A stretch of 64,000 nt of DNA from Terriglobia bacterium (GTDB lineage: Bacteria; Acidobacteriota; Terriglobia; Bryobacterales; Bryobacteraceae). Position 1 is the first letter of the stretch. Each line of letters opens with the position of its first letter. The stretch lies in the NCBI GenBank assembly GCA_963705675.1, contig CAVPKR010000155.1, positions 1,089 through 65,088 on the forward strand, in the 5' to 3' direction. Position numbers and translations under genes: made by a program. Below are positions 6,284 to 56,185 of the stretch, piece by piece. The notes below the pieces were generated by a model that did not search any database, had not been told where the DNA came from, and worked only from the letters and a program-made list of their open reading frames with translations.

Positions 6284-6753
6284 CGTGTCCTTTTTGCGGC
6301 CACAAAGAGGACCGGGTAATCGATTCGCGGGAAAGCAAAGAGGGCGACGTGATCCGTCGCCGCCGCGAATGTCTGGGCTGTGAACGTCGCTTTACCACCT
6401 ATGAGCGTAGTGACGAGATCCCCTACATGGTCGTCAAACGGGATGGGAGGCGAGAGAAGTTCGATCGCCAGAAAGTCCTCGAAGGGCTTCTAAAGGCTTG
6501 TCAGAAACGGCCTGTAGCGATGGCGAAACTGGCCGAAGTGGTGGACGAAGTGGAATCGTCCGCTGGCTGACAATCCGGATCGGGAGATTCGACCACCGCG
6601 ATCGGGGAGATGCTGATGGAGCGGCTCAGGACGCTGGATAAGATCGCGTATGTGCGGTTTGCCTCGGTTTATCGGGATTTCCAGGATGTTGAAGCGTTTC
6701 TGAATGAGTTGAAGGACCTGTCTGCCAGCGACGAGGCGCAGGGTGAGACCTAG
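6280..6753 (+). CDS. nrdR: Transcriptional repressor NrdR, interrupted by an in-frame TGA at 6568-6570 (apparent pair of compensating indels)
   Basis: [19 protein letters not shown]...[12 protein letters not shown] is the zinc ribbon, followed by an ATP-cone. After the TGA the same frame continues ...[40 protein letters not shown] to TAG 6751-6753. Confidence 0.85.
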
Positions 6754-6994
6754 ATGACATCTGTAACCAAGCGACATCCAGAAACATCTTTTGAAATAGG
6801 GACTTAACATGAACGAAAGAAGACTGTTATACTGATTGCTAGTCCCCGGTCCGACGGAGAGCATGAAGTGCGTCCCTGATGTACTTGTAAGCTTTTGTGC
6901 ACAAAGGACTTAACGGGACTGGTACCCCAAGGCAAACGTTCAAGCCTGAGGCCTGAAGAGAAATTGGCGTTGTCGATTGGGGGAGGTGAACACG

Positions 6995-18658: not shown

Positions 18659-18698
18659 GAAGATAGCTACGTTATTCGACGCCCGAAGTTCGCAGAAA

Positions 18699-19157
18699 TT
18701 AGGCAAATTTCTGGTCGGCGCCTACGCGGCCTGTCTCAATCGCAGCCGCATAATAATTCTCGCCTCGAGTAGGCGACCCAGACATTCGCCGCATCATCGC
18801 GAGTTGGCCGATGTGCGTCAGCGAATCGGCCAACGGGCCCTGAAACAGCCTTTCGAGCGGAGCGTGAACAGTCTCCCCCGAAGCCAGGTGCGCATCCAGG
18901 GCCGCCAAGGTGGAGAAGAACCGATCGACTTCCTGGTCCCAGGCGAGCGGCGTCGAAGGCTTCCAGCTCTTGTCGCCCTGGGACATTCGCAGCGACCATT
19001 CGAACAGATCGCCGAGGTGCGCCAGGATCTCCACGGGAGGCTTACCGGCGCCGTTGAAGGCGGCGAATCCAGCCGGCGCATCGCGGATCGTTTTCCCGCC
19101 TCGATAGGCGATGGTTGCCAAAGTGTGTCGAATCAGGTCGCGTTTAGGCTCGGGCAT
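18699..19157 (-). CDS. DinB-family (four-helix bundle) protein
   Basis: 152 aa with HTLATIAYRG..., ILAHLGDLFEW and LTHIGQLAMMRR, the His-containing helices typical of DinB-like proteins. Confidence 0.55.
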   Translation of the reverse strand: MPEPKRDLIRHTLATIAYRGGKTIRDAPAGFAAFNGAGKPPVEILAHLGDLFEWSLRMSQGDKSWKPSTPLAWDQEVDRFFSTLAALDAHLASGETVHAPLERLFQGPLADSLTHIGQLAMMRRMSGSPTRGENYYAAAIETGRVGADQKFA

Positions 19158-41632: not shown

Positions 41633-41824
41633 TTAGCTACCGGTGGTCGAAGCCGCCGTCATCACAGACGCGACCTTCGAGAAGATCGTGCTGATGCTCG
41701 TGGCAACACCCGGCATAATCGCGCCAGCCGCGACTGCAACAAAACCCGCCATCAGAGCGTACTCGATGAGGTCCTGTCCGCGCGTATCTTTCCAAACCTG
41801 CAACTTCAAGATAAGATTCTTCAT
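41633..41824 (-). CDS. flp: Flp/Fap-family type IVb pilin
   Basis: MKNLILKLQVWKDTRGQDLIEYALMAGFVAVAAGAIM... contains the G/xxxxEY prepilin processing motif and a hydrophobic stretch. The tail is Ser/Thr-rich (VMTAASTTGS). Confidence 0.85.
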   Translation of the reverse strand: MKNLILKLQVWKDTRGQDLIEYALMAGFVAVAAGAIMPGVATSISTIFSKVASVMTAASTTGS

Positions 41825-41875
41825 TTTTCCTCTAATCTCCTCTCCCTACGGTGCGCGACAGGTCCCTGCCGCTGT

Positions 41876-41904
41876 ATAAAATCTAACATCGCTCCGGCTT
41901 GCAA
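41876..41904 (-). promoter_or_regulatory. Candidate sigma-70-type promoter for flp (TTGCAA-N17-TTTTAT)
   Basis: The minus strand reads TTGCAAgccggagcgatgttagaTTTTATacagc, followed by the GGAGAGGAG ribosome-binding region and the ATG. Confidence 0.3.
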
Positions 41905-42033
41905 AGAATCAGGCTAATTGCCTAATGCGCCCGCTGAAAACTCTCAGGTCTTCCAGCTTTTGGGCCGCTGGCCGTACCTTTCGGACCACTCCAAGCACCC
42001 CGCCGGTTGAGGTGTATGGTAACGTTTATCCGT

Positions 42034-43602
42034 ATGACTTCGAGGCTCCAGAGTGCCTTTGGCTTAGTCATTCTGATAACTTTATCGGCCTGGATCGCCT
42101 TGAACAATAGCGACTTGCCCGAATTTGGTGCGAATCACGACGATGGCATATACTTCGCCTCAGCAAAGTCCTTAGCTGAGGGCCAAGGGTATCGGATTCC
42201 CAGCCTGGTTGAGGACCCCTATCAGACAAAATACGGTCCTCTGTTCCCTCTTTACATGTCGCTGGCCTGGAGGATCCAACCGTCTTTCCCCGCCAATCTT
42301 CGAGTTGCAGCCTGGCTTGGATGGCTAACCATCCCTGTTTTCTTGGCTTTGAGCCTGTTGTTATATCAAAGTTGGGGGATCAAGGGTGTGCGTTTGTGGA
42401 TTCTGTTGGTGCTGCTGGCGGTAAATCCATACGTGATCCACTTTGGAATCAGCATCTTCTCGGAAATGTTCTTCACCTGTCTGATTCTGGGTGCCCTGCT
42501 TTGCTTGACTCGATCGGGTGTAAAATGGGCGATTTGGGCGGGCGTGCTGGGCGGATTGGCTTATCTAACTCGTTCAGCCGGGTTAGCTTTGCTCATTTCC
42601 GCGCCGATTGTCTTGCTATGGCGAGGAGAGCGTCGCCGTGCGATGTGGCTGGCAGGCTCGATGTTGCCTTTCGTCATCGGCTGGACCGTCTGGACCCGCG
42701 GACATCAATTCAAAGGCGCTGACGAGATCCTGCTATATTATACAAACTACTTTGGTTATGCTCGCCAAGCGATTTCTCTATCCGATCTTCCCGTAGTCCT
42801 GTGGAAGAACGCCGACGGCTTGCTTTACGCAATGGGAGCGATGGCGCTGCCGGAGATTACGTCGGCGCTGCTGGTGAAAATTCTGACCCAAGTGTTGGGG
42901 ATCGCGATGATCGCGGGGATCGTCAGGATGGCGCACCGGGGTGTCGGATGGCACTACGCGGCCTTTGGCGTGATTTCGTCGGGCATGCTGCTGGTTTGGT
43001 ATTTCCCGCCGAATGAGCGATTTATCCTCCCATTGATCCCGTTTCTTCTAGCCGGATTGCTGACCGAGATGGACCACTTGCAGGGCATGCTTCGCGGAGC
43101 TTTGACGCATAAAGACTGGTCCCAGCGGATCGTCGCGGCGGGATTTGGGGTGGTCCTTGCGATTGTGCTGCTGGGCGCGGTGGCGCTTCAATTCTATACG
43201 GTACTCTCGCTGATGCCGGACGCGGCCCATCAGCGACGGCAGCTCGCAGCGGAAAATCGTGTGGCTTATCAATGGATTGCGGAAAACATCCCGCGCGATG
43301 CCGCATTCATTGCTTACGAAGACCCCCGGTTCTATCTCGAAACCGGACATCCGGCGATGACTTTGAATCTTCCGCCGAAATTCTGGTATCGCGGCGACCG
43401 CGCGGGGATGGTGGCGTTCTACTCGCAAATTGCTGAATTTGCTAGGGCGCACGGCATCGGATACGTCTATTTCACCTCCGAAGACCTGGGCCGCGAAATG
43501 GCTGGGGAGGACAAGGACGCGGTTTTGAAGGCCATCGCAACGAATCCCGAGCTGACGGCGATAGAGCACACCAAAATCGGCACCATCTATAAGATTCGCT
43601 GA
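42034..43602 (+). CDS. GT-C-fold membrane glycosyltransferase paralog (intact)
   Basis: MTSRLQSAFGLVILITLSAW...EFGANHDDGIYFASAKSLAEGQGYRIPSLVEDPYQTKYGPLFP. It has about 11-12 TM segments and a soluble C-terminal domain. It resembles 40014-41566 along its whole length. Confidence 0.7.
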   Translation: MTSRLQSAFGLVILITLSAWIALNNSDLPEFGANHDDGIYFASAKSLAEGQGYRIPSLVEDPYQTKYGPLFPLYMSLAWRIQPSFPANLRVAAWLGWLTIPVFLALSLLLYQSWGIKGVRLWILLVLLAVNPYVIHFGISIFSEMFFTCLILGALLCLTRSGVKWAIWAGVLGGLAYLTRSAGLALLISAPIVLLWRGERRRAMWLAGSMLPFVIGWTVWTRGHQFKGADEILLYYTNYFGYARQAISLSDLPVVLWKNADGLLYAMGAMALPEITSALLVKILTQVLGIAMIAGIVRMAHRGVGWHYAAFGVISSGMLLVWYFPPNERFILPLIPFLLAGLLTEMDHLQGMLRGALTHKDWSQRIVAAGFGVVLAIVLLGAVALQFYTVLSLMPDAAHQRRQLAAENRVAYQWIAENIPRDAAFIAYEDPRFYLETGHPAMTLNLPPKFWYRGDRAGMVAFYSQIAEFARAHGIGYVYFTSEDLGREMAGEDKDAVLKAIATNPELTAIEHTKIGTIYKIR

Positions 43603-43632
43603 AGTTTCCGCCGATTTCTTAAGGGAGATCGA

Positions 43633-45138
43633 ATGTCCTCCCTGGCGTCATCCATCCCGCAAACGATTCCTCAGCCGCGTACGGAATTGTGGTGCCGCAG
43701 GCTGCTATGGATGTTTGCGGCGGTCGCTTTCGTGTGCATCTTGTTCCACTTGGCGATGCTCTTCTGGGCTCAGAATGCCTTTTCGGGGCCGGAATCGGTG
43801 GTGAGCGCGCAGTCTCAGATGCTGGCCCACGATGGGACGCTTTACTACGATCTGAACCGGTATCCTTACACGGTTAGCGCTTATACGCCGATTTTCTATC
43901 TGACCGAAGCCGCGCTTCGAAAGGCCGGGCTGCCGGCATTGGCCGCCGGGCGGCTGATCAGCTTTGGCTCGCTGATCGGAATCGTCATTCTGATCTGGGG
44001 GCTGACCATGCTCTACACGGGGGACCGGTACTGCGCCTGGACGGCCGCCCTTCTCGCGGCGTCCACGTCGCTGCTACTGAATTGGGGAACCATCGGGCAG
44101 GTCGACACGCTGGCCGCCTGCTTCGCGATGGCCGCATTCTGGCAGTTTTCCAAATACCTTCTTCGAGGAGATAAAGCGCTTGTGACCGCCGGAATCTTCG
44201 CGACCCTTGCCTTCTTTACCAAGCAGACGATGGTCGCGTGCCCGCTTGCGATTTTCGTCGTCCTGTTGATAGAGCGTCCCAGAGCTGCTTTGCGATTCGG
44301 GATTGGTTTGGCCGCTGTCGTAGCCGGGGTCGCGCTGGGAATCAATGGGATCACGCAGGGACATTTCTTTGCCAACACAGCTCGCGCGAATCTGAACCCG
44401 TTTGCTCTGTCGAAACTAAAGCCGCATTTTATGGTCCTGATCGGCGTGACGCCGATGATGGTGGTGGTACTGGCTGGAGCGAAACCTGCGTGGCGGGCCG
44501 GGCGGGCGTTATTCCTCTATCTGGGATTCGCAGGCGCGATTTTCCTATTGACCGCGGCGAAAATCGGGTCGGACACGAACTATCAGATCGAATTTACCAT
44601 CCTGCTGATTCTGTGCGCCTGCCTGGCGCTGCACTCGCTCGATTTCTTTCCGCTCACCTTCGGCGGCAGCAAGCACTGGATCACCCTCCTGCAAATCCCA
44701 CTGGCCGTGCATCTGGTATTGAATTTCAGAATCACGACCAACATCCTGCTGACCCGGGTCGCGATCGAGCAGCAATTTCGAGCCGAAATATCCGCGCTGA
44801 AACCCTACGTCAATGGACGGCTGTTATCGACAGACTACAATGCGAGTGAACGGCTGCGCGGATCGATCGAAGTCGAAACACTGATTTACGGCCTTCTGGT
44901 TCGCGCGGGCGTGGTCGATCCCACACCGGTGCGCCGGGATATCGCGGCAGAGTCTTTCGGAACGATCATTCTTTTCGAAGATGCGCATCATCCGGCTGCC
45001 GGCCGCGACCTCGAAATATCCGCGCTTCCGGAGGCGCAGATGGAAGAGATCCGCTTACACTATAAGCTGGCCGCGCATATTCCGGGGCCCTACAGCGACG
45101 GCGTGTACGTGTACCAACCGATCCCATCACCACGATGA
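43633..45138 (+). CDS. GT-C-like polytopic membrane protein (more divergent fourth paralog)
   Basis: 501 aa, about 11 TM segments. The first loop reads SQMLAHDGTLYYDLNRYPYTVSAYTPIFY. It also has a FFTKQT motif. Confidence 0.55.
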   Translation: MSSLASSIPQTIPQPRTELWCRRLLWMFAAVAFVCILFHLAMLFWAQNAFSGPESVVSAQSQMLAHDGTLYYDLNRYPYTVSAYTPIFYLTEAALRKAGLPALAAGRLISFGSLIGIVILIWGLTMLYTGDRYCAWTAALLAASTSLLLNWGTIGQVDTLAACFAMAAFWQFSKYLLRGDKALVTAGIFATLAFFTKQTMVACPLAIFVVLLIERPRAALRFGIGLAAVVAGVALGINGITQGHFFANTARANLNPFALSKLKPHFMVLIGVTPMMVVVLAGAKPAWRAGRALFLYLGFAGAIFLLTAAKIGSDTNYQIEFTILLILCACLALHSLDFFPLTFGGSKHWITLLQIPLAVHLVLNFRITTNILLTRVAIEQQFRAEISALKPYVNGRLLSTDYNASERLRGSIEVETLIYGLLVRAGVVDPTPVRRDIAAESFGTIILFEDAHHPAAGRDLEISALPEAQMEEIRLHYKLAAHIPGPYSDGVYVYQPIPSPR

Positions 45139-45782
45139 CCACCGCCATCAAAAATTATCACGAGGTCCGCTTCCAGTACGATCCGCGCCGCGCGGTTGTG
45201 TGGGTCGCGATTTGCCGGTATCTTCAGCGATGGGTTTCCGAAGACGAAGGGCTGATCGAGCTGGGCGCCGGGTACGGCGAATTTTCGAAGAATATTCGGG
45301 CAGGCGCGAAATGGGCGCTGGACATGAATCCGGAACTGGCTGCGCATTGGGGCCGGGATATCCGTCCGCTGATTCAGTCCGCAACCGATCGGCTACCGGT
45401 TGCGAGTGAGAGCGTCGCCACAGTGTTCGCTTCAAACTTCTTTGAGCACTTTACGATTGAGCAGGGCGAAGTGATTCTGAGCGAAGCCTATCGCGTGCTT
45501 CGGCCCGGCGGACGGCTGATAGTAGTCCAACCGAATTTCCGGCTGGAGCCGCGACGCTATTACGACGACTACACGCATCGGACCGCCTACACCGACAACG
45601 GATTCACAGATTTTCTACGCTCGTTGGGATGGAACATCGTGCACTCGGAACCTCGCTTCACGCCGTTCAGCATGAAGTCGCGCTTTCCGGTGGCGGGCTG
45701 GCTGATACGGCTCTATCTGGCACTGCCGTTCCGCCCCTTCGCGGGACAATTCATGCTGGTCGCCGAAAAGCCCGCGCGGTAG
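45135..45782 (+). CDS. Class I SAM-dependent methyltransferase
   Basis: Motif I is LIELGAGYGEF. The post-I/II region is ATVFASNFFEHF...VLRPGGRLIVVQPN. The ATG overlaps the upstream stop as ATGA. Confidence 0.8.
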   Translation: MTTAIKNYHEVRFQYDPRRAVVWVAICRYLQRWVSEDEGLIELGAGYGEFSKNIRAGAKWALDMNPELAAHWGRDIRPLIQSATDRLPVASESVATVFASNFFEHFTIEQGEVILSEAYRVLRPGGRLIVVQPNFRLEPRRYYDDYTHRTAYTDNGFTDFLRSLGWNIVHSEPRFTPFSMKSRFPVAGWLIRLYLALPFRPFAGQFMLVAEKPAR

Positions 45783-45798
45783 GATAGATTTACATCTC

Positions 45799-47322
45799 AT
45801 GATAAAGGCCGGCCAGAAGGCTCCCGATGTAGCGCGCGCGATTCCAACAGGCGAGCCTTGTCTGCTGGTGTTTCTTGAAACCGACTGCCCCACCTGCCGG
45901 CTTGCGATGCCGTATCTCAACAAGTTGGCGAGGCAATCGGCGCAGGTTTTAGGGATTTCGCAGGATTCCGCGGAGTTGACGCGTATGTTCGTCGAACAGA
46001 CTTCAGCTGCGTTTCCGGTGGACGTGGATCAGGGATTGCGAATCTCGCGGGCTTTCGATCCGGTATCGGTGCCCACGTTTTTTCTGATCGGCGCGGACGG
46101 ACGCGTGATCCGTACTGTGATCGGTTTCGATAAGAGCGATCTGAACGCCGTGGCCGCAGCGATGGGACGCGGAGCGATTGCCGATGCATATGACGGGAAT
46201 CCGCCGAGCAAGCCTGGATGCTCTTCCCGTCACTTGGAAACGGCTGACGATAGTCCGGCAGCGGAGGCTTTGAACCTTCACGCCGCGCGTGGAACGCGGG
46301 CGTCTCGAATTGAGATTTCTGAAGACCCCTACGATTACTCGATGCGGGCTTTCGGGGATCCATTGCCGGTGATCCCGCCTACAGTGGAGCGCGTGGACCG
46401 GATGATCGGCGAGCTGGATCCTGCGGAAATCGTGGGGCGGATTCCGCCGTGCTACGGCGAGGCGACCATCGAAAAGATCGCGGCCAACGCGGTGATGGCC
46501 GGGTGCGTTCCTCAAATGATGCGGGTGCTAATCCCGTTAGTGCGCGCGGTTTGCGATGAGCGATTCAACGCCCATGGCGTGCAGGCGACCACCCATTTCG
46601 CGGCGCCTCTGATTATCATGAACGGTCCGGTTCGCGACGAGCTGGGGTTCTGGTACCGCAAGAATGTATTCAGCAATGTCGCGCGCGCCAACAGCACTTT
46701 GGGCCGCGCTCTCCAGTTGATGCTGTTGAATCTGGGAGGCGCGCGGCCAGATGGGATCGACATGTCGGCGCTGGGAAATCCCGGTAAGTTTTCATATTGC
46801 ATCGCTGAAAACGAAGAGGAGAGCCCGTGGGAGCCGCTGCAAGTCGAGCAGGGATTTTCGCGCTCCGACAGCACATTGACACTGTTCGCGGGGGAAGCGC
46901 CGAATGGAGTGAGCGAACACATGTCGCGGACCGCAACGGGAGTGCTGACGGCGATCTCGCGGGCGCTCGCCACGGTGTGGAGCTATCGGACATGCATGAG
47001 TATCGAGGCTATGGTCGTCCTGTGCCCGGAGCACGTGAAGACGATTCATCGCGACGGATTCAGCAAGTCCGACGCGCGCGATTTTCTGTTCCGCAACACG
47101 GGCATTCCCGTGCGGGCATACGATATAGAAGGCGAGGGCGCGCAGCACGTGAAACTGTATCGCGAAATCGAGATCGGGGGCGAGCGCTGCTATCAGAAAT
47201 TCCGCGCGCCGGAATCGATCAAGATTGTGGTAGCCGGTGGAACCGCCGGTAAATTTTCAGCCGTGATCGGCAGTTGGAGCGCGGGGCCGCGCGGCAGCCA
47301 GATGGTGACTTATCCATGCTAA
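45799..47322 (+). CDS. Thioredoxin-fold (TlpA/redoxin-like, CPTC) domain fused to a ~370-aa domain of unknown function
   Basis: The N-terminus is MIKAGQKAPD...LLVFLETDCPTCRLAMPYLNKL...VPTFFLIGADGRV. I cannot assign the C-terminal domain (...IEKIAANAVMAGCVPQMM...HGVQATTHFAAPLIIMNGP...). Confidence 0.7.
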   Translation: MIKAGQKAPDVARAIPTGEPCLLVFLETDCPTCRLAMPYLNKLARQSAQVLGISQDSAELTRMFVEQTSAAFPVDVDQGLRISRAFDPVSVPTFFLIGADGRVIRTVIGFDKSDLNAVAAAMGRGAIADAYDGNPPSKPGCSSRHLETADDSPAAEALNLHAARGTRASRIEISEDPYDYSMRAFGDPLPVIPPTVERVDRMIGELDPAEIVGRIPPCYGEATIEKIAANAVMAGCVPQMMRVLIPLVRAVCDERFNAHGVQATTHFAAPLIIMNGPVRDELGFWYRKNVFSNVARANSTLGRALQLMLLNLGGARPDGIDMSALGNPGKFSYCIAENEEESPWEPLQVEQGFSRSDSTLTLFAGEAPNGVSEHMSRTATGVLTAISRALATVWSYRTCMSIEAMVVLCPEHVKTIHRDGFSKSDARDFLFRNTGIPVRAYDIEGEGAQHVKLYREIEIGGERCYQKFRAPESIKIVVAGGTAGKFSAVIGSWSAGPRGSQMVTYPC

Positions 47323-47836
47323 CGACTTTAGTTAATCCTTGTGACGAGCGGACGGTTTCATCGACGGCGGCTCCGCGGCTGGACACGCTGGCGGGGAAAA
47401 CGGTGGCGCTGCTCGATATCAGCAAACCCGGCGGCAGTGTTTTCCTCGACCGGCTCGAAAGAATTCTGATGGAGCGCCACGCGGCGGGCCGAGTGATCCG
47501 GCTCATGAAGCCGACGTTCGCCAGGGCACCCGGCAGGTGCTGGATCAGCTGCGCAGCGTGGACGCGGCGATTGAAGCGCTGGCGGATTGAGGGTCCTGTA
47601 CCACGTGCAGTTTGCACGACACGATCCAGTTAGAGAATTGGGGAATTCCCGCGGTGCCGGTGGCCACGCACGAGTTTATGCTGGCGGCGAGAGCGCAGGC
47701 CGCGGCTTTGGGGAGGCCGGACTTCGACGCGGTTTACGTCGCGCATCCTATTCAGGATCAGACCGGCGCGGAGATTGAGGCTCGGGCGGATGCGGTTGCG
47801 GGCGAGATCGTGGCGCGGCTCATCGGGCATAGTTGA
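47316..47836 (+). CDS. Candidate UGSC-family selenoprotein: in-frame TGA (47588-47590) read as Sec; also one frame change near 47535
   Basis: ATG 47316 overlaps the upstream stop. Frame 0 reads MLTTLVNPCDE...RVIRLMKPTFARAPG. It then continues in the frame of ORF 47612-47836 as VLDQLRSVDAAIEALAD-TGA-GSCTTCSLHDTIQLENWGIPAVPVATHEF...VAHPIQD.... About 82 sense codons follow the TGA. Confidence 0.55.
47591..47627 (+). promoter_or_regulatory. SECIS-like hairpin immediately 3' of the in-frame TGA
   Basis: GGGUCCUGU (47591-99) pairs with ACACGAUCC (47619-27), giving 8 pairs including one G-U wobble, plus one C-C mismatch. A 4-nt bulge ACCA follows. CGUGCA (47604-09) pairs with UGCACG (47613-18). The loop is GUU, and the loop G lies 19 nt after the UGA. 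Confidence 0.5.
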
Positions 47837-47885
47837 CCAGAATGATTGAAACCTGGCGTTGCTCATTTGCGTAGAGTTCTTTCAT

Positions 47886-50253
47886 ATGGACCTCAAGTTC
47901 GCCCTGCGATCGCTTCGAAAGAGTCCGGGGTTCACTGCGCTGGCCGTGCTGGTGATGGCGCTCGGGATGGGGGCGAACACCGCAGTTTTCAGCGTAGTTA
48001 ACGCGGTGCTGCTGCGGCCGCTGGGGTATCGCGATCCCGATCGGATCGTGGTGCTCACGTCGTCGTGGAAAAAAGGGGTGCTGGCTGGGGCGCTATCTAA
48101 ACAGGTTTCCGCACTGGACGCTCAGGATTGGCACGATCAAAGCAGCGCGTTCCAGTGGATGGCCTATTATGCGACCACGCAGGCTTCGGTGCTCGCCGGT
48201 GAGGCTGCTGCTTACGGGCGTGTGACCCAAGTTACGCCGGAGTTTTTTCGGGTTTTTGGAATCGAACCCGCCGCGGGGCGTATTTTCCCAAGCAGCGGGA
48301 CCGTGGTGATCAGCCACGCGTATTGGCGCAGCCAGTTTGAAGCCAATCCCAGCGCGATCGGACGCAGCGTGCGGATGTTCGAAAGGACCTTCACCGTGGC
48401 GGGCATTATGCCCGAGGGGTTTAACGATCCGGTGCATAGCGATCTCTGGCTGCCGATCGAAATGAAGGCTCAGAAGCCCGAATATCGCGCGGGGCTCAAT
48501 TACGAATGCATCGCGAGGCTCAAGCCGGGCGTGAGCGTGGAACAGGCACAGGCGCAGCTGACGTCCATCGCCACCCGGCTGACGCAGCGATATCCCAATA
48601 CGAACGAAGGCCGCGGCGTTTCTGTCACGCGATTGAGAGACGAGACGGTCAGCGAGGTTCGAACCACGCTGTATACTTTTGCTGGGAGCGGTGGGAGTGG
48701 TGCTGCTGATCGCGTGTGCGAACGTCGCGACGCTGCTGCTGGCCAAGGCGACGGGACGGGCGCGGGAAATGGCGATTCGCGCCGCGGTGGGGGCCACTCG
48801 CGGGCGGATTCTCCGGCAGTTGATCACAGAGAGCCTGGTGTTATCGGTCATGGCGGGCGGCGTGGGACTGGTAGTGGCGATATGGGGATCGAAGGCGCTG
48901 GTCGCCCTCGCGCCGGCCGGGGTGCCGAGGTTGGCCAGCACGTCCACCGACGGGTGGGTTCTGATGTTCAATTTCGCGATGGCGGTCGTCGCGAGCCTGC
49001 TGTTCGGCTTGGTTCCCGCAATTCACGCGTCTCGGACGGATTTGAATCAGATGCTGCGCCGTGGGGCGGGAAGTTTGAACTCGATGCGGTCCGCGCTGGT
49101 GATCGCGGAGATTGCGATGTCGGTGATCCTGCTGGCCGGTGCGGGATTGTTGATGAAGAGCTTCATCGCTCTGCGCGGTGTAACGCTCGGATTCCAGCCG
49201 GAAAACGTGCTAGTGATGAAGACGACAGTTCCGGCATCGAGCGATTCGGGCACTCGTCGCGCCAACCAGTTTTTCAAAGGACTGCTGGCTGACATGGCGA
49301 CATTGCCGGGCGTGGAGGCTGCGGGCGCGACCACCTCGCCTCCAGGGCATATCGAAACGTCGACGCTGTACTGGATCGATCGGATCCCTAAACAATTGGA
49401 CATGAGCGGGACGCCGGCGTTGGTATCGGTGGTCGCGCCGGGCACGTTCCATGCTCTGGGAATTCCCCTGAAGCAGGGACGCGATTTCAACGATTCCGAC
49501 GGTCCCGGGACGCCATTCACCGTCATCGTGAATGACGCGCTGGTGCGAAAATCGTTTGCTGGGCAGGATCCGATCGGCCGCACTATCTTTTGTCCTTCCG
49601 ATTCGCTCGACGGGATGAAGATTGCCGGCGTAGTGGGCGACGTTCGACAGGAGGGGCAGGCGTACGCGCCGCAGCCGGAATGCTACATGCCCTACCAGCA
49701 GCATCGCTACAACGGGACCACCCTTAGCGTAGTCGTCAAGACCGCGGGCGATCCGCGGGGGCTGATGGACTCCCTGCGCAAGATGGTGGCGAATCGCTCG
49801 CCCGAAGTGTCGGTGGATTTCACTACGATGGGAGCGCTGCTCGCCGGGAACGTCGCGCCGGATTGGTTCAGAACGCTGCTGCTGGGAATCTTCGCGGGCT
49901 TGGCCGTCTGCCTGGCGATGGCTGGGGTCTACGGGGTAATGGCGTATCTGGCGGCGCAGCGGACCAGCGAGATCGGTCTGCGGATGGCGCTGGGCGCGTC
50001 CCCAGGTAACGTGCTGCGGCTTATCTTGGGCCAGGGGATGACGCTCGCAATGATCGGTGTCGCGCTGGGTCTCGCGGGAGCTTTCTCGGTCTCGCGGCTG
50101 CTCACCAGCATGCTGTTCGAGGTGAAACCTGGAGATCCGGCGATCTATGCGTCGGTCGCGGCAATGGTGGCGGCAGTATCGTTCGTGGCCAGTTATCTGC
50201 CTGCGCGCGCGGCTGCAAGTGTAGACCCGCTGGTCGCGCTGCGCAATGAGTAG
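47886..50253 (+). CDS. ADOP-family MacB-like ABC transporter permease, frameshifted in a T run near 48678
   Basis: MDLKFALRSLRKSPGFTALAVLVMALGMGANTAVFSVVNAVLLRPLGY. ORFs 47859-49292 and 48679-50253 join as ...VRTTLYT-LLGAVGVVLLIACANVATLLLA. The C-terminus is VDPLVALRNE. Confidence 0.85.
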
Positions 50254-50276: not shown

Positions 50277-51371
50277 TTGCGATCCGTGAATTCCCGCAGA
50301 GCTCTCGTTCCCCTCCTCGGCCTGCTGATCGCCGGAAATTTTCTTCCGGGACAAAGCAAGAAAGAAAAGAAAGAGCCTGTCACTCAGACCCTGCCGCTAC
50401 TTAAAGACCCGCCTACGGCTCTCGCCGCCGAGACCGCTCGATTGGAATTTCACGTTTCGCCGCTCTCCGCGAAAGGCCTGCTTTCCCCGCAAATTCGCGA
50501 GGCGCTGAAGGCGCTGTTCAATGAGAATCACGGCGCGACTATCGTCAAGCTGCGCGCATTCGTGGCCGGATCAGGCGATTTGCGGCGCGTGCAGACGCTG
50601 GTCAGCGAAATATTCAGCGATCGCAAAGTGAATCTTCCGGCGCTCAGTACGATTCAAGTGGGCGCGCTTCCGCTGGATGGCGCGCAGGTGATTTTCGAAA
50701 GTATCGCGACCGATAAGAAAGCCGTGAATCCGAATGGACTTGCGTTTTTCGCGGGTCAGCAATCGAAAGACGTGCGCCAGTCGATCCAGCAGCTCCAGAC
50801 CGCGGCTAAGGCGGCAGGGGTGGCTTCGAGCGAGATGCTGCGGGTCACTTGTTTCCTCAGCTCGATCGAGGATGTTTCCACGGCGCGCGGGGCGCTGACA
50901 GCGGCTTTCCCGAATGCGGCGGCGGATTATGTGCAACTTCAGCGGCTCGGTTTAGAACCGCTGGACGAATGCGAAGGAGTGGGACGCCTGGAAACCGCTC
51001 CCGCATCGGCGGTCGAGCTGGTCAATCCTCCGGGTTTGACGCAGAATCCGAACTACTCGCAGATCGCGCTGGTGAATGCGCCGAAAGTGATCCTCAGCGG
51101 GAGCCAGATGGTGTTCGGCGAACAAGAGTCGGATGTAGTCCTCGGATTCGAACGATTGGAGAAAGCGCTGGAGCCATTGGGAGTCACTTATAAAAACGTG
51201 TTCTGGTCAAGCACGTATCCGCTGGCGAAACCGGTGGCCGATAAAGTCCGCGCCTTGCGATTCAAGTATCTGGATCAGTCGCGGCCGCCCGCGAGCACCT
51301 TTTTGTTATTCGAAGGACTCCCGTCGCTGGACGCGAGCGTGGCGTTCGAGGTAATCGCCGCCCAAATGTGA
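50277..51371 (+). CDS. Secreted protein with three RidA/YjgF-like repeats in one chain
   Basis: Signal peptide, then three segments each ending in a RidA-like C-terminal pattern: ...LPALSTIQVGALPLDGAQVIFESIA; ...MLRVTCFLSSIEDV...; ...PPASTFLLFEGLPSLDASVAFEVIA. Confidence 0.45.
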   Translation: MRSVNSRRALVPLLGLLIAGNFLPGQSKKEKKEPVTQTLPLLKDPPTALAAETARLEFHVSPLSAKGLLSPQIREALKALFNENHGATIVKLRAFVAGSGDLRRVQTLVSEIFSDRKVNLPALSTIQVGALPLDGAQVIFESIATDKKAVNPNGLAFFAGQQSKDVRQSIQQLQTAAKAAGVASSEMLRVTCFLSSIEDVSTARGALTAAFPNAAADYVQLQRLGLEPLDECEGVGRLETAPASAVELVNPPGLTQNPNYSQIALVNAPKVILSGSQMVFGEQESDVVLGFERLEKALEPLGVTYKNVFWSSTYPLAKPVADKVRALRFKYLDQSRPPASTFLLFEGLPSLDASVAFEVIAAQM

Positions 51372-51864: not shown

Positions 51865-52494
51865 TTACTGGACCAGTCCTTCGTCCAGGGCGTACTTGGT
51901 GAGCTGCGCCGTGCTCGATAAACCGAGCTTGTGTTTTAGATTATTTTTATGGAAAGCGACGGTTTTTTCGGAGATGGCGGCAGCGTACGCGATCTCCTTA
52001 CGGCTCTTTCCTTCCGCGATCAACTGGAGGATCTCGCGCTCACGGGCGCTCAGACGAAGTTTGTCGGCCGCGTGGCTGGAATCCGCGATCCCGCTGGCCC
52101 TGTCGCCGCCAACGCCTGGAGTGATATACAAATTTCCGGCGAGGACCGCCTCGACCGCCGCCAGAATCTCCGTGCGGCCAGACGACTTCACCGCGAACCC
52201 GTTCGCGCCTGCCTCAAGCGCCGCTTGCAGATAGGTTGGCCGCGTATGCATGGTGACGAACAACAGCTTCATGTCGGGCAGATGTTTGCGAATCTCGCGC
52301 GCGGCATCGATTCCGTTTAGTAACGGCATCGTGATGTCCAGGATGATCAGATCCGGTTTCAGACGAATGGCCGCTTCCACCAGCGCTTTCCCGTCTTCCA
52401 TGGAACCCACCACGTTATAGGGCTGGAGCAGATTGCGGATCCCGTCCAGCATCAAAGCATGGTCATCCGCTAGCAGAATGAGCGCGCGCTTCAT
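51865..52494 (-). CDS. NarL/LuxR-family response regulator
   Basis: The receiver is ALILLADDHALMLDG...DLIILDITMPLLNGIDA. The HTH is LSAREREILQLIAEGKSRKEIAYAAAISEKTVAFHKNNLKHKLG. Confidence 0.9.
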   Translation of the reverse strand: MKRALILLADDHALMLDGIRNLLQPYNVVGSMEDGKALVEAAIRLKPDLIILDITMPLLNGIDAAREIRKHLPDMKLLFVTMHTRPTYLQAALEAGANGFAVKSSGRTEILAAVEAVLAGNLYITPGVGGDRASGIADSSHAADKLRLSAREREILQLIAEGKSRKEIAYAAAISEKTVAFHKNNLKHKLGLSSTAQLTKYALDEGLVQ

Positions 52495-55400
52495 GGCTCC
52501 GCCGGCAACGGTACTTCGACTAGCACCGTCGTCCCATGTCCCGGTTTGGATTCAATCGACAGCTTGCCGCCCATCATCTTCGCCCGCTCCGTCATGCTGA
52601 CCATGCCCAGCCCGCCTCTACCTTTCACGGCCGCGGGATCGAAGCCCACGCCGTTGTCTTCGACAGACATCCTTAAACGGTGATCCGGAATGGCCAGATT
52701 CACGGTGACTTGCCCCGCCCTGGCGTATTTGGCCACATTTTGCAGGCTCTCCTGCGCGATCCGGTAAACGCCGGACGCGATGCTCAAAGGAACCGAATCC
52801 GGCAGCTTGCCGGCGGTGAACTTTACCGGAATATCCTCCGCCGCTGAAAAATCGCCACACAATGCTTTAAGGGAGATGGTCAGCCCCAGGTCGTCCACCA
52901 CGGACGGATGCAGTTCGTAGGCGATGTGCCGCGCCTTTTCCGAGGTTTCGATCACGCGCCCTTCGAGAGCCTTCAGACGCGTTCGCGTGGATGCGACCGT
53001 ATCGGGTTCGCTTGCCAACGCTTCTACATCCAGAGCCAACGAAGCCAGTTGCTGGCACAAGCTGTCATGCAATTCTCGCGAAACCCGGCGCCGTTCTTCT
53101 TCCTGCGCCGTCAGCAACTGTGCCGCCAGCGCGCCAATCTCGGTCCGGTAGATGTCCGATTGCTTCTCCAGACGACGCCGTTCGGTGACGTCCACAAAAA
53201 CGCGACTGCCAGCCGCCGCTCAGTACGCTCGATGGTACTGAAGGTAGCTTCAACCGGAAAAACGGCACCGTCACGACGGCGTGCTTCGAGGCCGATTCCT
53301 ATACCCGCCCGCTCTTACGAGCGCCTAAAAATCCTTGCAGAATTTCGGAGGTATGCTGCCGGGGGCTCTCCGGAAGCAAAAAGCGGAGAGGCTGGCCGAC
53401 GATCTGATCCCGGCGGTAACCGAACATCTTTTCCGCTCCGCTATTCACCAGCACGATCTTTTCGTCAACGCCGGCCGCGACAATGGCCTGTCCCGACGAC
53501 TCCAGCAGCGCGCTCGCATAATCGCGCGACTGGCGAGCTTCCTCGAGCAACGGACGTTTGATCAGGTCAATGTCCAGCAGGACCACGATCACGCCGTCGA
53601 TCTTATTATCGCCGGTACGGTACGGACGCAGACGCAGCAGGTACCAGTAACCGTTACGGTCTTTGACCTCGCGTTCGATCGGGCGAACCTGGTCAGTAAC
53701 CTCGCCGACCCATTTTTCCCAATCGGGCATCTGGAAAGTGGACGCGATGTCGCTGAAGGGCCGTCCCACGTCGGATTCGAGCAGATTCAGCAGTTTTCCC
53801 GCGACCGGAGTGAAGCGGCGGATGTGCAGGCTCCCGTCGAGAACCAGCACCGAAATCTGGACCCCCACCAGCAGGTTGTTCAGGTCGTTGGTCAGGACGC
53901 TCAGCTCGGAGTTGCGGTGGCGCAGCTCTTCATTGAGCGTGATCAGCTCCTCGTTCGAGCTCTGGAGCTCTTCCTTCGCGGTTTCCAGCTCCTCGTTCGT
54001 GCTCTGCAGTTCTTCGTTGCTCGACAGAGCCTCCTCGCTGGCCGCTTTCATCTCCTCCTGCGCGGCTTCATGCTCGGCGATCAAAGTGCGCATGTATTCG
54101 CGCGCGGAAACCAATTCCTTCTCCAGGCGGGAGGCCGGTAGTTCCTTTTGCGTACGCTTGCGCTCAGCCGGAGCGTGGGCATGCTCCGTTTCCTTGAAAA
54201 CGATCAGGAAATCCGGTTTCTGCGCGGCATTTTTGTGGAGCAGCGACACATCGATGCGAACGTTTCCAGGATGCCCCTTGTGCGGATACGGGATCACATC
54301 GGTCGACACCATGGTTCCTTGACGCTTCGCCTGCGAGATGGCGCTGCGAATTTCGACCACAAACTCCGGACGGATTATTTTAAACAGGTGATAGGCGGGC
54401 GGGCCCGTGGAAAGAGCCAGATAGGGACTGGTGTCGCCTTGAAAATGAACCACCCGCAGATCGGAATCCACCACCAGAGCAGGCGGCACGTAGCGGTGCA
54501 GCAGAATTCGTTCGGCTTCCTTCTGATGATCCATCAGTGGAGCGGCCAGAGCGATCTTGGGCTGCCCGGTCCGGTGCTCTTTCTGTTCGCCACTCAGCCA
54601 GTCGAAGCGGGATGCCAGCGGAGCACCCTCCTTGCGGGAGAAGATCTTGTGGGTATGGTCCTCAGGACGTAAAGATGTTCGCAAACGCGCTGATCGCCTC
54701 GGATTTTCCGAGCATAAGGGCACCGCCGGGCTTCAGCGCGTAATGGAAAATTCCTAAGACCCGCTTCTGTAGAGCCGTCCCCATGTAAATCAGGACATTC
54801 CGGCAACTGATCAGGTCAAGTTTCGAAAACGGAGGATCGTTGGCCAGGTCATGCCGCGCGAACACACACAGGTCGCGCACGGATTTGTTGATCTGGTAGC
54901 CATGGTCGGCTTTGACGAAAAAGCGCTTAAGGCGCGCGGCCGATACACCATGCACTGCGGCTTCCGAGTAGATTCCGACGCGCGCATGCTCGATCGCGCG
55001 CTCACTGATGTCGGTGCCGAACATCTGAATCCTCAGCCGGCTGGCGTGCGCGCCCAGATCCTCGAGCAGCAGCATCGCAATAGTGTAAACTTCCTCGCCC
55101 GTCGAACAGCCGGGGACCCAGATGCGGATCGCGTCCTCAGGCGGCCGTTTACCACGAAGCTTCGGAAAGACCTGTTTTCGGAGCGCCTGAAAGCACTCGG
55201 CGTCGCGGAAGAATCCGGTGACGTGGATGAAGATATCGGCCGCCGCAGCCTCCGCCTCACTACGGTCCTGCTTCAGGAACTGCGCATATTTGTTGAGCGA
55301 GTCGATTCTCTGCAAAGCCATCCGGCGCGCCAGACGGCGGCGGACCGTATGCTGCTTGTACCAATGGAAGTCCAAGCCAGTGGCGGAGCGGAGCAGTTGA

Positions 55401-56185
55401 TAAATCTTCTCGAGCCCGTCGCCCTCGGGAGCTTCCCGGTTCTGCTCCAGTACGTACGGATGGTGTGCGATGCGCACCAGCTCGGCGGCGATTCGGGTGG
55501 GCGTCAGCACAAAGTCCACCGCGCCAGCCGCGATGGCGCTCATCGGCATGGCCGACCATTCTGCGGTTTTAGGATCCTGCGCGAAAGTCACGCCTCCTTC
55601 GGCCTTGATCTCCTTGAGACCTTGCGTCCCGTCCGTTCCGCTGCCCGATAGGATCACGCCGATGGCCGCGCTGGTCTGCTCCTGGGCTAAGGCCGCGTAG
55701 AATTCGTCGATGGGATGATGCGGGCTGGGGGTCCCTTCGCGCGGCATCAGCTTGAGCGCGCCGCCGCTCACAATCATGCTCTTGTTCGGTGGAATCACGT
55801 AGACGTGATCCGGCTGGACCACAATTCCGTCGGTCACTTCCCGCACAGGCATGGAGGTGGCCTTCGAGAGGAGCTGGGTCAGCGCGCTGGGGTGCTGCGG
55901 GTCAAGATGCTGGATCAGCACAAAGCCCAGTCCTGAATGGGCGGGCAGCGCCTTCAGTAGCGCGGTTAAAGCTCCCAATCCACCCGCAGAGGCGCCTACG
56001 CCGACAATCGGTACGGGACCTGTTACAACGGAATGGCTTTCAGGGCGTGGATCCTTCGACCGCCCCCGTTTGGATTTTGACGCGATGGTTTTTTTCTGAA
56101 TCGCCACGCTTCGCCGCTGACCGGCATTCTGCCCGCAAGGGCTTTCTGAAAGATACCACTCCTGACGTGCGCTAGCGGGACACAC
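52491..56185 (-). CDS. CheB-methylesterase / CheR-methyltransferase / PAS / HisKA_3 histidine kinase fusion, read across about 3 frameshifts (~54670, ~53310, ~53200)
   Basis: ORF 54662-56185 has CheB-like VGVGASAGGLGAL...GSGTDGTQGLKEIKAEGGVTFAQDP and CheR-like FFRDAECFQAL, IRIWVPGCSTGEEVYTIAMLL. ORF 53299-54723 has a coiled coil (NEELQSTNEELETAKEELQSSNEEL) and PAS domains. A bridging frame reads GLEARRRDGAVFPVEATFSTIERTERRLAVAF. ORF 52491-53195 is the kinase core (RRRVSRELHDSLCQQLASL; GGLGMVSMTERA). The exact start is uncertain. Confidence 0.75.

What the first reader, a model, noticed from the sequence alone, without database searches (positions are those of the whole stretch)
47316..47836. 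Candidate UGSC-family selenoprotein: in-frame TGA in a U-G-S-C motif followed at once by a SECIS-like hairpin, beside a thioredoxin-fold fusion gene
The TGA and its coding context:
- In the frame of ORF 47612-47836 the upstream sequence reads ...VLDQLRSVDAAIEALAD-TGA-GSCTTCSLHDTIQLENWGIPAVPVATHEF....
- The TGA at 47588-47590 therefore sits where a redox Cys/Sec would be, in an xGSC motif.
- Clearly protein-like sequence runs on both sides of it, with about 82 sense codons downstream.

The hairpin:
- Directly after the TGA, 47591-47627 can form an extended hairpin.
- The lower stem is GGGUCCUGU/ACACGAUCC with one mismatch. A 4-nt bulge follows, then the upper stem CGUGCA/UGCACG and a GUU loop.
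- The loop G is 19 nt past the UGA. This is within the 16-37 nt spacing described for bacterial SECIS elements.

Family and neighbourhood:
- From memory, a protein family named UGSC family (seleno)protein exists in NCBI family models, with Sec or Cys at this motif.
- The gene start (ATG 47316) overlaps the stop of a CPTC thioredoxin-fold protein fused to a large uncharacterised domain (45799-47322). This suggests a redox pair.

Consequence and caveat: standard ORF callers split this gene at the TGA. One additional frame change near 47535 (probably a 1-nt deletion) must also be assumed.
Basis: partly seen in the sequence, partly recalled or inferred. Interest (0 to 1): 0.75.

Follow-up and report, generated by a model that had tools for sequence, protein, structure and literature searches.

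The report
UGSC selenoprotein gene, broken by assembly indel
This is a real gene for a known but functionally uncharacterised selenium-containing protein (the UGSC family), with its selenocysteine signal intact; the frame break in it is most likely a sequencing or assembly error, so the finding is correct but not new.

Summary
TGA 47588-47590 is the Sec codon of a UGSC-family (seleno)protein. The repaired translation scores 140.5 bits on NCBIfam NF041046 (cutoff 125) and 151 bits on Pfam PF24696.

All 80 relatives fetched from several phyla carry TGA at this codon, in one continuous frame. A 6-bp stem with a GU-N loop (47604-47618) is invariant even at synonymous sites. Its loop G and U sit at nt 23/24 from the UGA, as in the E. 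coli fdhF SECIS.

The window lacks 4 nt (47524-47535) relative to every homolog. NrdR, an RpoD-like sigma factor, two permeases and a kinase are also frame-broken in this window. A 99.95%-identical independent contig ends exactly at the site. dN/dS is 0.05-0.08 on both sides. The break is therefore probably an assembly indel, not decay.

The upstream gene (TlpA-like thioredoxin plus a ~330-aa domain with no Pfam match) is adjacent in about 66 of 77 loci. It is fused to Cys-type UGSC proteins elsewhere. One relative places selD, selA, selB and tRNA-Sec right beside the pair.

AlphaFold2 indicates a flavodoxin-like fold, not a thioredoxin fold. There is a weak, in-register resemblance to PrdB. 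The family has been known since 2007; its function is unknown.

The parts
45799..47322 (+). Partner gene (507 aa). It has an N-terminal TlpA/ResA-like thioredoxin domain with CPTC (about residues 1-135, 45799-46203), then a linker, then a ~330-aa domain with no Pfam match ('Unknown_1', 46309-47319). No signal peptide is visible.
   Evidence: - Pfam AhpC-TSA/Redoxin and NCBIfam ResA-like hits cover residues ~14-113 only; there is nothing for the C-terminal domain even at E<=10.
- A PDB profile search finds only ResA/DsbE for residues 10-123 and nothing for the C-terminal domain.
- The gene lies directly upstream on the same strand in about 66 of 77 UGSC loci.
- The same domain is fused C-terminally to Cys-type UGSC proteins.
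- 4479 cluster representatives match at E<=1e-3.
47316..47534 (+). UGSC gene, N-terminal part in the ATG frame (MLTTLVNPCDER...KPTFARAPG). The start overlaps the partner gene's stop codon.
   Evidence: Translation. It aligns to the ~95-aa N-terminal fragments that gene callers produce for Sec-type homologs. dN/dS against L082 is 0.08.
47523..47536 (+). Frame-break site. The window is 4 nt shorter than every homolog: a Pro codon of the K/R-P-A-P motif and 1 nt at GGC^AG are missing.
   Evidence: - DNA alignments with 41 loci and with the closest relative L082.
- The independent contig L081 (99.95% identical) ends at 47523.
47534..47587 (+). UGSC gene, middle part in the TGA frame (QVLDQLRSVDAAIEALAD).
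   Evidence: Translation. Matches the family consensus ...VLxxLRxxDAVIEALAD.
47588..47590 (+). UGA selenocysteine codon (the U of U-G-S-C).
   Evidence: TGA at the homologous codon in 80 of 80 genome loci. Cys in the CGSC-type homologs.
47604..47618 (+). Conserved SECIS core: stem CGUGCA / UGCACG with loop G23-U24-U25 (loop at 47610-47612).
   Evidence: - 100% paired in 77 distinct sequences.
- The codons are fixed at synonymous sites: ACG 77/77, TGC 77/77 and AGT 77/77. The preceding Cys codon, by contrast, is TGT 35 / TGC 42.
- The same G23/U24 and U26-C30 positions occur in E. coli fdhF (with direct counting).
47591..47627 (+). The lower stem is specific to this lineage.
   Evidence: Folds at -15.4 kcal/mol. 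The lower helix is only 67% paired across the family, with no covariation. It is retained in the close relative L082.
47591..47836 (+). UGSC gene, C-terminal part after Sec (GSCTTCSLHDTIQLENWGIP...ARLIGHS), ending at stop 47834-47836.
   Evidence: Translation. dN/dS against L082 is 0.05. Matches family positions up to 170/172.

Best explanation
Region 47316-47836 is one gene for a UGSC-family selenoprotein of about 175 aa, in an uncultured acidobacterium (Terriglobia/Bryobacterales-like).

**How it most likely works**
1. It is transcribed with, and probably translationally coupled to, the upstream gene. Its ATG overlaps that gene's stop codon.
2. When the ribosome reaches UGA 47588, SelB carrying Sec-tRNA(Sec) binds the small hairpin at 47604-47618. 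The loop G and U of this hairpin sit 23 and 24 nt from the U of UGA. Selenocysteine is inserted instead of terminating.
3. The product is a flavodoxin-like alpha/beta domain. Sec sits at the N-terminus of the third helix in a U-G-S-C motif, which can cycle between selenol/thiol and selenenylsulfide.
4. It most likely acts as the redox-active subunit of a cytoplasmic three-module system. The other two modules are the neighbour's ~330-aa uncharacterised domain (the presumed substrate-handling part, with a nearly invariant Cys in NAVMAGC) and its TlpA-like CPTC thioredoxin domain (the presumed re-reductant).

**The frame break.** The break at 47524-47535 is most likely an indel error of the assembly, not a feature of the organism.

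**Shown versus inferred**
- Shown: family membership, the conserved TGA, synonymous-site constraint on the hairpin, synteny and fusion with the partner domain, and purifying selection on both halves.
- Inferred: SelB binding, redox chemistry, direction of electron flow, and the artefactual nature of the frameshift.
For: **Family**
- NF041046 140.5 bits against a cutoff of 125; PF24696 151 bits.

**Sec codon**
- 80 of 80 loci from Acidobacteriota, Gammaproteobacteria, Dehalococcoidia, Binatia, Actinomycetota, Poribacteria and others have TGA here, in one continuous frame.
- Roughly 85 of the 120 listed database homologs are 94-96-aa products truncated at ...EALAD.
- Cys-type full-length homologs align CGSC at the motif.

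**SECIS**
- The upper stem and GU loop are invariant, including the synonymous positions.
- The geometry matches fdhF.
- Only 2 of 1731 TGAs in the window fit it.

**Sec machinery in relatives**
- L076 carries selD, selA, selB and tRNA-SeC directly upstream of the same gene pair.
- L075 has selD about 4 kb away.

**Partner gene**
- Adjacent on the same strand in about 66 of 77 loci.
- Fused to Cys-type UGSC.
- A UGSC/'Unknown_1' fusion was reported earlier (PMC2398784).

**Fold**
- AlphaFold2 mean pLDDT 95.3, with five beta-alpha units.
- Best PDB matches are lumazine synthase, azoreductase and the NagZ C-terminal domain (TM about 0.5).

**Frameshift as artefact**
- NrdR, an RpoD-like sigma factor, two ADOP permeases and a CheB/CheR kinase are also frame-broken, giving at least 8 breaks in 64 kb.
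- Contig L081 from run ERR10755948 is 99.95% identical. It has its own GGG->GG and TT->T deletions and ends at 47523.
- dN/dS is 0.08 before the break and 0.05 after it, against 0.09 for the neighbour gene.
Against: - As assembled, the gene cannot make a full-length product.
- The deficit is 4 nt, not a simple 1-nt homopolymer slip, and it removes a Pro of the nearly conserved KPAP motif.
- No selA, selB, selD or tRNA-Sec lies in the window, so Sec competence of this particular organism is not shown.
- The hairpin shows conservation but no compensatory changes (0 double-sided changes in the upper stem). On its own its folding energy is only marginally unusual.
- No Rfam family matches.
- The function of the UGSC protein and its partner is unknown. 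The proposed relay rests on motifs, synteny and fusion only.
- The AlphaFold2 model was made for homolog P0001 (59% identical), not for the window protein.
Confidence: 0.8

Rival explanations
1. The frame break is real, and the gene is a very recently inactivated UGSC pseudogene in this lineage.
For: - The assembled sequence lacks 4 nt relative to all 81 homologs, including loss of a conserved-motif Pro codon.
- A 3+1-nt deficit is less typical of a single homopolymer miscall.
- No Sec machinery is visible in the window.
Against: - Both halves show strong purifying selection (dN/dS 0.05-0.08), and the SECIS core is intact. Any inactivation would therefore be extremely recent.
- Housekeeping genes in the same window (NrdR, RpoD-like sigma) are also frame-broken, which points to assembly errors.
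- A near-identical independent contig carries different homopolymer deletions and terminates at the site.
Confidence: 0.15
2. The TGA is an ordinary stop codon, and there are two separate small genes: an N-terminal ~90-aa protein and a C-terminal ~75-aa protein.
For: Standard ORF callers produce exactly this split: 95-aa products in most database entries and ORF 47612-47836 here.
Against: - The stop is always TGA, never TAA or TAG, in 80 of 80 loci.
- Cys-type homologs are single polypeptides aligned across the site.
- The downstream part has no conserved start codon and begins immediately after the TGA.
- The hairpin is fixed at synonymous sites.
- The curated family model spans both halves.
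Confidence: 0.02
3. The frame change is a programmed ribosomal frameshift that is part of the gene's expression.
For: Only that a frame change exists inside an otherwise conserved gene.
Against: - None of the 80 relatives, nor the closest one (L082), has a frame change there.
- No slippery heptamer or conserved stimulatory structure is evident at 47520-47540 on direct reading.
- Many other genes in the window are broken as well.
Confidence: 0.01

Closest known systems
UGSC-containing / UGSC family (seleno)protein (NCBIfam NF041046, Pfam PF24696; Zhang & Gladyshev 2007, 2008)
   Same: - Scores above the curated cutoff, with the same length.
- Same ...EALAD-U-GSC-TTCS-HD motif, with TGA for U and the same downstream hairpin.
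- The literature describes the family as a selenoprotein of unknown function. It is abundant in aquatic metagenomes, with 255 Sec forms against 21 Cys forms in the GOS data (PMC1976440, PMC2398784).
   Different: - This copy is frame-broken as assembled and is one residue short in the beta2-alpha2 loop.
- The literature calls the family 'likely Trx-like fold'. The AlphaFold2 model here is a five-unit beta-alpha (flavodoxin-like) domain, with no thioredoxin-fold protein among the best 50 PDB matches.
E. coli fdhF SECIS element
   Same: - A hairpin directly 3' of the UGA and inside the coding sequence.
- Loop G and U at nt 23 and 24 from the U of UGA.
- An identical 3' stem half U26-G27-C28-A29-C30.
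The fdhF sequence was verified in 5419 E. coli genomes.
   Different: - The UGSC hairpin has a 3-nt loop (GUN) and a continuous 6-bp stem.
- fdhF has a 4-nt loop (GGUC) and a bulged U17.
- The lower stem is not conserved in the UGSC family.
- SelB binding was not tested.
D-proline reductase PrdB / glycine reductase GrdB (Pfam PF07355 GRDB)
   Same: - A Sec in U-G-[ST]-C directly after a beta-strand and before a helix that ends in ...E-x-x-G-I-P followed by a strand.
- Profile-profile alignment of 86 columns with Sec in register (hhalign probability 86%, P = 5e-6).
- The Pfam UGSC model hits PrdB at E = 0.0036.
   Different: - The UGSC protein does not hit the GRDB model.
- With the U/CxxC columns masked, the similarity drops to 10% probability (P = 0.003).
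- The partner domain shows no similarity to the pyruvoyl subunit PrdA.
- UGSC is about 65 residues shorter than PrdB and lacks its N-terminal region.
This is a resemblance, not membership.
TlpA/ResA/DsbE-type thiol-disulfide oxidoreductases (for the neighbour's N-terminal domain)
   Same: A thioredoxin-fold domain with a CxxC motif (CPTC). Best PDB sequence matches are ResA and DsbE (E 7e-12 to 1e-9).
   Different: - Scores are far below the curated cutoffs for ResA, DsbE and StoA (43.8 against 170 bits and similar).
- There is no signal peptide or membrane anchor on direct reading, so the protein is probably cytoplasmic.
- It is fused to a ~330-aa domain that has no Pfam, NCBIfam or PDB sequence match.

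Membership tests
UGSC family (seleno)protein (NF041046 / PF24696) | Whole-protein HMM score at or above the curated cutoff | tested here: met
   The repaired translation (C in place of U, 1 nt restored) scores 140.5 bits against a cutoff of 125 (NCBIfam, equivalog). It scores 151.1 bits against 25 (Pfam), covering profile positions 2-170 of 172.
UGSC family (seleno)protein (NF041046 / PF24696) | U (TGA) or C at the first position of the x-G-S-C motif, aligned with homologs | tested here: met
   TGA 47588-47590 aligns with TGA in 80 of 80 loci. It aligns with Cys in the CGSC homologs.
UGSC family (seleno)protein (NF041046 / PF24696) | A single uninterrupted reading frame apart from the Sec codon | tested here: not met
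   The window needs a frame change at 47524-47535, whereas all relatives are in a single frame. This is judged most likely an assembly indel, but that was not proven.
Bacterial SECIS element | A stem-loop immediately downstream of the UGA, with an apical-loop G (and U) at the required distance | tested here: met
   A 6-bp stem at 47604-47618 with loop G23/U24. It is invariant in 77 distinct sequences, including synonymous sites, and has the same spacing as fdhF.
Bacterial SECIS element | Base-pairing supported by compensatory changes | tested here: inconclusive
   The upper stem never varies, except G-C to G-U at one pair (15 of 77), so there is no double-sided change. The lower stem is 67% paired and no better than shuffles.
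Bacterial SECIS element | Binding by SelB and Sec insertion; presence of selA, selB, selC and selD in the genome | not testable with these tools
   None of these genes is in the 64-kb window. Relative L076 has selD, selA, selB and tRNA-SeC next to the gene pair.
Thioredoxin-fold selenoproteins (as proposed for UGSC in the literature) | Thioredoxin fold around the UxxC motif | tested here: not met
   The AlphaFold2 model (pLDDT 95.3) has five consecutive beta-alpha units. The best PDB matches are flavodoxin-like or Rossmann-like domains, with no thioredoxin-fold protein in the top 50. The model is of homolog P0001.
GRDB family (PrdB/GrdB, PF07355) | A match to the family HMM | tested here: not met
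   The UGSC protein gives no PF07355 hit even at E<=10. Only a remote profile-profile similarity around the Sec was found.

The most novel reading that the evidence does not exclude
UGSC is not a thioredoxin-fold protein. It is a flavodoxin-like domain distantly related to the Sec-bearing module of the PrdB/GrdB reductases. Together with its almost always adjacent (or fused) ~330-aa domain, which has no Pfam match, and a cytoplasmic TlpA-like thioredoxin, it forms a widespread, still uncharacterised selenoenzyme that reduces an unknown substrate.
Probability: 0.3. Interest if true: 0.6.

Novelty: new member of a known kind. Interest (0 to 1): 0.3.

Why it matters
**For annotation.** The gene would be missed or split twice, once by the UGA and once by the indel. 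This is a useful example of how selenoprotein genes vanish from long-read metagenome assemblies.

**For biology.** The UGSC family is one of the most abundant prokaryotic selenoprotein families, and it has no known function.
- a near-universal operon partner, which is fused to it in Cys-type forms;
- a flavodoxin-like rather than thioredoxin-like predicted fold;
- a weak PrdB-like signature around the Sec;
- a relative in which the whole sel gene set sits next to the pair.

None of this changes the fact that the family and its Sec usage were already described.

Tried and rejected
- **Rfam.** No family matched at gathering threshold over the window, or at E<=10 over 47540-47700. Bacterial SECIS elements appear not to be modelled usefully there.
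- **Exact look-up of the 507-aa neighbour.** Not on record.
- **AlphaFold2 of the neighbour.** With 17 close homologs, only the thioredoxin domain folded with confidence. The C-terminal domain had pLDDT below 50 and was not used for fold search.
- **PDB sequence and profile searches.** Nothing was found for UGSC (best E = 0.58) or for the C-terminal domain. No PrdB structure was found by sequence.
- **Structure prediction with locus-derived full-length sequences.** A mixed fragment alignment (A6) was visibly misaligned and was discarded.
- **'Unknown_1' domain as a PrdA/GrdE-like pyruvoyl subunit.** hhalign gave probability 0.9%, so this was rejected.
- **UGSC against the neighbour's thioredoxin domain, and against Unknown_1.** No relationship was found (probabilities 2.7% and 0.1%).
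- **Scan of the window for other in-frame TGA genes.** Nothing convincing was found. The second hairpin-bearing TGA, at 6947, is non-coding.
- **sel genes in the window.** None was found by Pfam on the 20 largest genes or by tblastn with L076 SelA/SelB/SelD.
Full report
**1. The observation**

- In the frame of ORF 47612-47836 the upstream sequence reads ...VLDQLRSVDAAIEALAD-TGA-GSCTTCSLHDTIQLENWGIP... and ends at stop 47834-47836.
- From ATG 47316, which overlaps the stop of gene 45799-47322 by 7 nt, a different frame reads MLTTLVNPCDER...KPTFARAPG.
- RNA 47591-47627 folds into the drawn hairpin at -15.4 kcal/mol. On energy alone this is only marginally unusual (z = -1.97; 8 of 200 shuffles fold as well).

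**2. Family membership**

I joined the two frames and put Cys in place of the TGA.
- The 174-aa product scores 140.5 bits on NCBIfam NF041046 'UGSC family (seleno)protein' (curated cutoff 125).
- It scores 151 bits on Pfam PF24696, over profile positions 2-170 of 172.

In the 5.8-billion-protein collection, most homologs are 94-96-aa products ending ...EALAD. These are gene calls truncated at the Sec codon. A minority are full-length Cys forms carrying CGSC.

**3. The TGA across relatives**

A scan of one genome per species returned 80 loci. They come from Acidobacteriota, Gammaproteobacteria, Dehalococcoidia, Binatia, Actinomycetota, Poribacteria, Verrucomicrobiia and others.
- In all 80 the codon before GSC is TGA. 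It is never TAA, TAG or a sense codon.
- In all 80 the gene is one continuous frame of about 170-185 codons.
- This excludes the reading 'two genes that end and start here'.

**4. The SECIS element**

I aligned 60 nt around the TGA from the 80 loci plus the window, which gave 77 distinct sequences.

The codons that form the upper stem are frozen at synonymous positions:
- Thr is ACG in 77 of 77.
- Cys is TGC in 77 of 77.
- Ser is AGT in 77 of 77.
- Leu/Val/Met is NTG in 77 of 77.
- His is CAC 62 / CAT 15, and both variants keep the pair (G-C or G-U).

The codons just upstream vary freely. Gly uses all four codons, the first Cys is TGT 35 / TGC 42, and the first Thr uses all four codons.

The consensus structure is a 6-bp stem CGUGCA/UGCAYG with loop G-U-N, 100% paired. 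It is a lineage feature, present here and in the close relative L082, and not part of the conserved element.

Counting from the U of UGA, the loop G and U are nucleotides 23 and 24, and the 3' stem half is U26-G27-C28-A29-C30. The E. coli fdhF element has the same bases at the same positions. I confirmed its sequence in 5419 E. coli genomes. That G23 and U24 matter for SelB binding is from my own knowledge of the fdhF literature and was not tested here.

In the window, only 2 of 1731 TGA triplets have this geometry. The other, at 6947, lies in non-coding DNA upstream of a sigma-factor gene. Rfam has no matching family.

**5. The frame break**

Against 41 acidobacterial loci and the nearest relative L082 (77% nucleotide identity), the window is 4 nt short between 47523 and 47536.
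- The Pro codon of the K/R-P-A-P motif is missing.
- One nucleotide is missing at GGC^AG.
- Restoring the single nucleotide gives ...FARAPGQVLDQL..., which fits the family consensus with a loop one residue shorter.

Three lines of evidence point to an assembly artefact rather than decay.

(a) Other conserved genes in the window are also frame-broken, giving at least 8 breaks in 64 kb:
- NrdR: the zinc ribbon and ATP-cone positions 2-44 are in one ORF, and ATP-cone positions 62-87 are in another.
- An RpoD-like sigma factor: region 1.2 is in ORF 7159-7890, and regions 2-4 are in ORF 7472-8527.
- Two ADOP/MacB-type permeases (16236-18706 on the minus strand, and 47859-50253).
- A CheB/CheR-PAS-histidine kinase, with breaks at 54664 and near 53320.

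(b) An independently assembled contig (L081, run ERR10755948) is 99.95% identical to 41727-47523.
- It carries its own two homopolymer deletions (GGG->GG and TT->T, at 46034-46037), and these break the neighbour gene there.
- It terminates at 47523, exactly at the UGSC break.

(c) dN/dS against L082 is 0.08 before the break and 0.05 after it, compared with 0.09 for the neighbour gene. Both halves have therefore been kept under selection in their own frames.

A very recent real frameshift cannot be excluded. I give it about 15%.

**6. Sec machinery**

The window has no tRNA gene. It has no SelA, SelB or SelD, either by Pfam on its 20 largest genes or by tblastn. This says little about a whole genome.

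Among the relatives, L076 has selD, selA, selB and tRNA-SeC (anticodon tca) immediately upstream of the same two-gene unit. L075 has selD about 4 kb away.

**7. The neighbour gene**

Gene 45799-47322 encodes a 507-aa protein with three parts:
- a TlpA/ResA-like thioredoxin domain (CPTC, residues about 1-135) with no N-terminal hydrophobic segment;
- a linker;
- a ~330-aa domain with no Pfam, NCBIfam or PDB sequence match.

This domain is encoded directly upstream of UGSC, on the same strand, in about 66 of 77 loci with enough flank.

In Cys-type homologs the UGSC domain is fused N-terminally to the same domain. Examples are P0246, P0253 and P0257, whose sequences continue ...GWSDGLPLVPPT...TVRKIAANAVMAGC.... 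This is presumably the 'UGSC/Unknown_1' fusion that Zhang and Gladyshev noted in 2008 (PMC2398784). Their figure is an image, so I could not compare it directly.

The domain family is large: 4479 cluster representatives match at E<=1e-3. They occur as stand-alone proteins (~350 aa), as forms fused to thioredoxin or UGSC (~510-560 aa), and as ~710-aa proteins.

Invariant or nearly invariant positions include DGLP..PPT, NAVMAGC, NGP, RAN.TIGRA, E.EE.SPW and PEH.

**8. Fold and distant relatives**

I ran AlphaFold2 on the full-length homolog P0001 (59% identical) with 42 session homologs.
- The model is confident (mean pLDDT 95.3, pTM 0.89).
- It has five consecutive beta-alpha units.
- The Sec position sits at the end of strand 3 and the start of helix 3.

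Foldseek against the PDB finds only fold-level matches (TM about 0.4-0.5). These are lumazine synthase, FMN azoreductase and the NagZ C-terminal domain. No thioredoxin-fold protein is in the top 50. This does not support the 'Trx-like fold' suggested in the literature.

The motif and its surroundings resemble PrdB (VDAVLLTAG-U-GTC-HRSAVIVQRAIEESGIPTIIIAA), so I tested that link.
- I fetched 79 real PrdB genes, all with TGA.
- Profile-profile alignment with UGSC gives 86% probability (P = 5e-6) over 86 columns, with Sec in register.
- The Pfam UGSC model hits PrdB at E = 0.0036.
- Controls: the reversed profile gives P = 0.045, and the thioredoxin CxxC domain gives P = 0.017.
- With the U/CxxC columns masked, the same alignment remains but falls to 10% probability (P = 0.003).

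I treat this as a suggestive resemblance, not as membership. The partner domain shows no similarity to PrdA.

**9. Mechanism**

Shown:
- a conserved UGA with a constrained hairpin at fdhF-like spacing;
- a U-x-x-C motif at a helix N-terminus in the model;
- obligate genomic linkage, and in some lineages fusion, with a Cys-bearing domain and a CxxC thioredoxin domain.

Inferred:
- SelB-dependent Sec insertion;
- a selenol/selenenylsulfide cycle;
- the partner C-terminal domain as the substrate-handling module;
- the thioredoxin domain as reductant.

The substrate is unknown.

**10. Novelty**

The family has been in the literature since 2007 (PMC1976440) and ranks among the most abundant selenoprotein families in ocean metagenomes (PMC2398784). 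It has curated NCBIfam and Pfam models, and recent reviews still list its function as unknown (PMC9312934, PMC13188914).

This locus is a new member in an acidobacterial genome. It is mis-callable because of the UGA and an indel. Interest is modest. The side results (operon partner, flavodoxin-like fold, PrdB-like signature, sel-gene adjacency in L076) are leads rather than findings.

Noticed in passing
window 6280-6753 (+): The NrdR repressor gene is split. The zinc ribbon and ATP-cone positions 2-44 are in ORF 6280-6570, and ATP-cone positions 62-87 are in ORF 6610-6753. There seem to be two frame changes within about 40 nt (6565-6605).
   Followed up: partly
window 7020-8527 (+): An RpoD-like sigma-70 gene is frame-broken. 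Region 1.2 is in ORF 7159-7890 and regions 2-4 are in ORF 7472-8527. Breakage of a housekeeping gene argues for assembly indels across the whole window.
   Followed up: partly
window 47859-50253 (+) and 16236-18706 (-): Two ADOP/MacB-type duplicated permease genes are each split by a frameshift (near 48670, and within 17200-17345). The first lies between the UGSC gene and the L-PSP-like gene 50277-51371. It is absent at that place in the closest relative, L082.
   Followed up: partly
window 52491-56185 (-): A CheB-CheR-PAS-HisKA_3 hybrid kinase is a single 1175-aa gene in relative L082. Here it is broken at 54664 and again near 53320. The C-terminus of the L082 copy also looks out of frame.
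   Followed up: partly
window 46309-47319 (+); also P0306-P0455: The ~330-aa C-terminal domain of the neighbour has no Pfam, NCBIfam or PDB sequence match, yet 4479 cluster representatives match it at E<=1e-3. Several architectures occur: stand-alone, fused to thioredoxin, fused to UGSC, and ~710 aa. It is a large uncharacterised family that would merit a family model and a deep-alignment structure prediction.
   Followed up: partly
L076 354-6507: In this actinobacterial-type MAG contig, selD, selA, selB and tRNA-SeC sit directly upstream of the Unknown_1-domain gene and the UGSC gene. The pair may be a principal client of the Sec machinery in that organism.
   Followed up: partly
window 6947-6977 (+): This is a second TGA followed by a 6-bp stem with a GU loop at +23/+24. 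It lies in apparently non-coding DNA upstream of the sigma-factor gene and was judged a chance match.
   Followed up: yes
L081 4309-4330 (= window 46034-46037): The independent Logan contig of the same organism has GGG->GG and TT->T deletions that truncate its copy of the neighbour gene to 428 aa. The contig stops at window position 47523, right at the UGSC frame break.
   Followed up: yes
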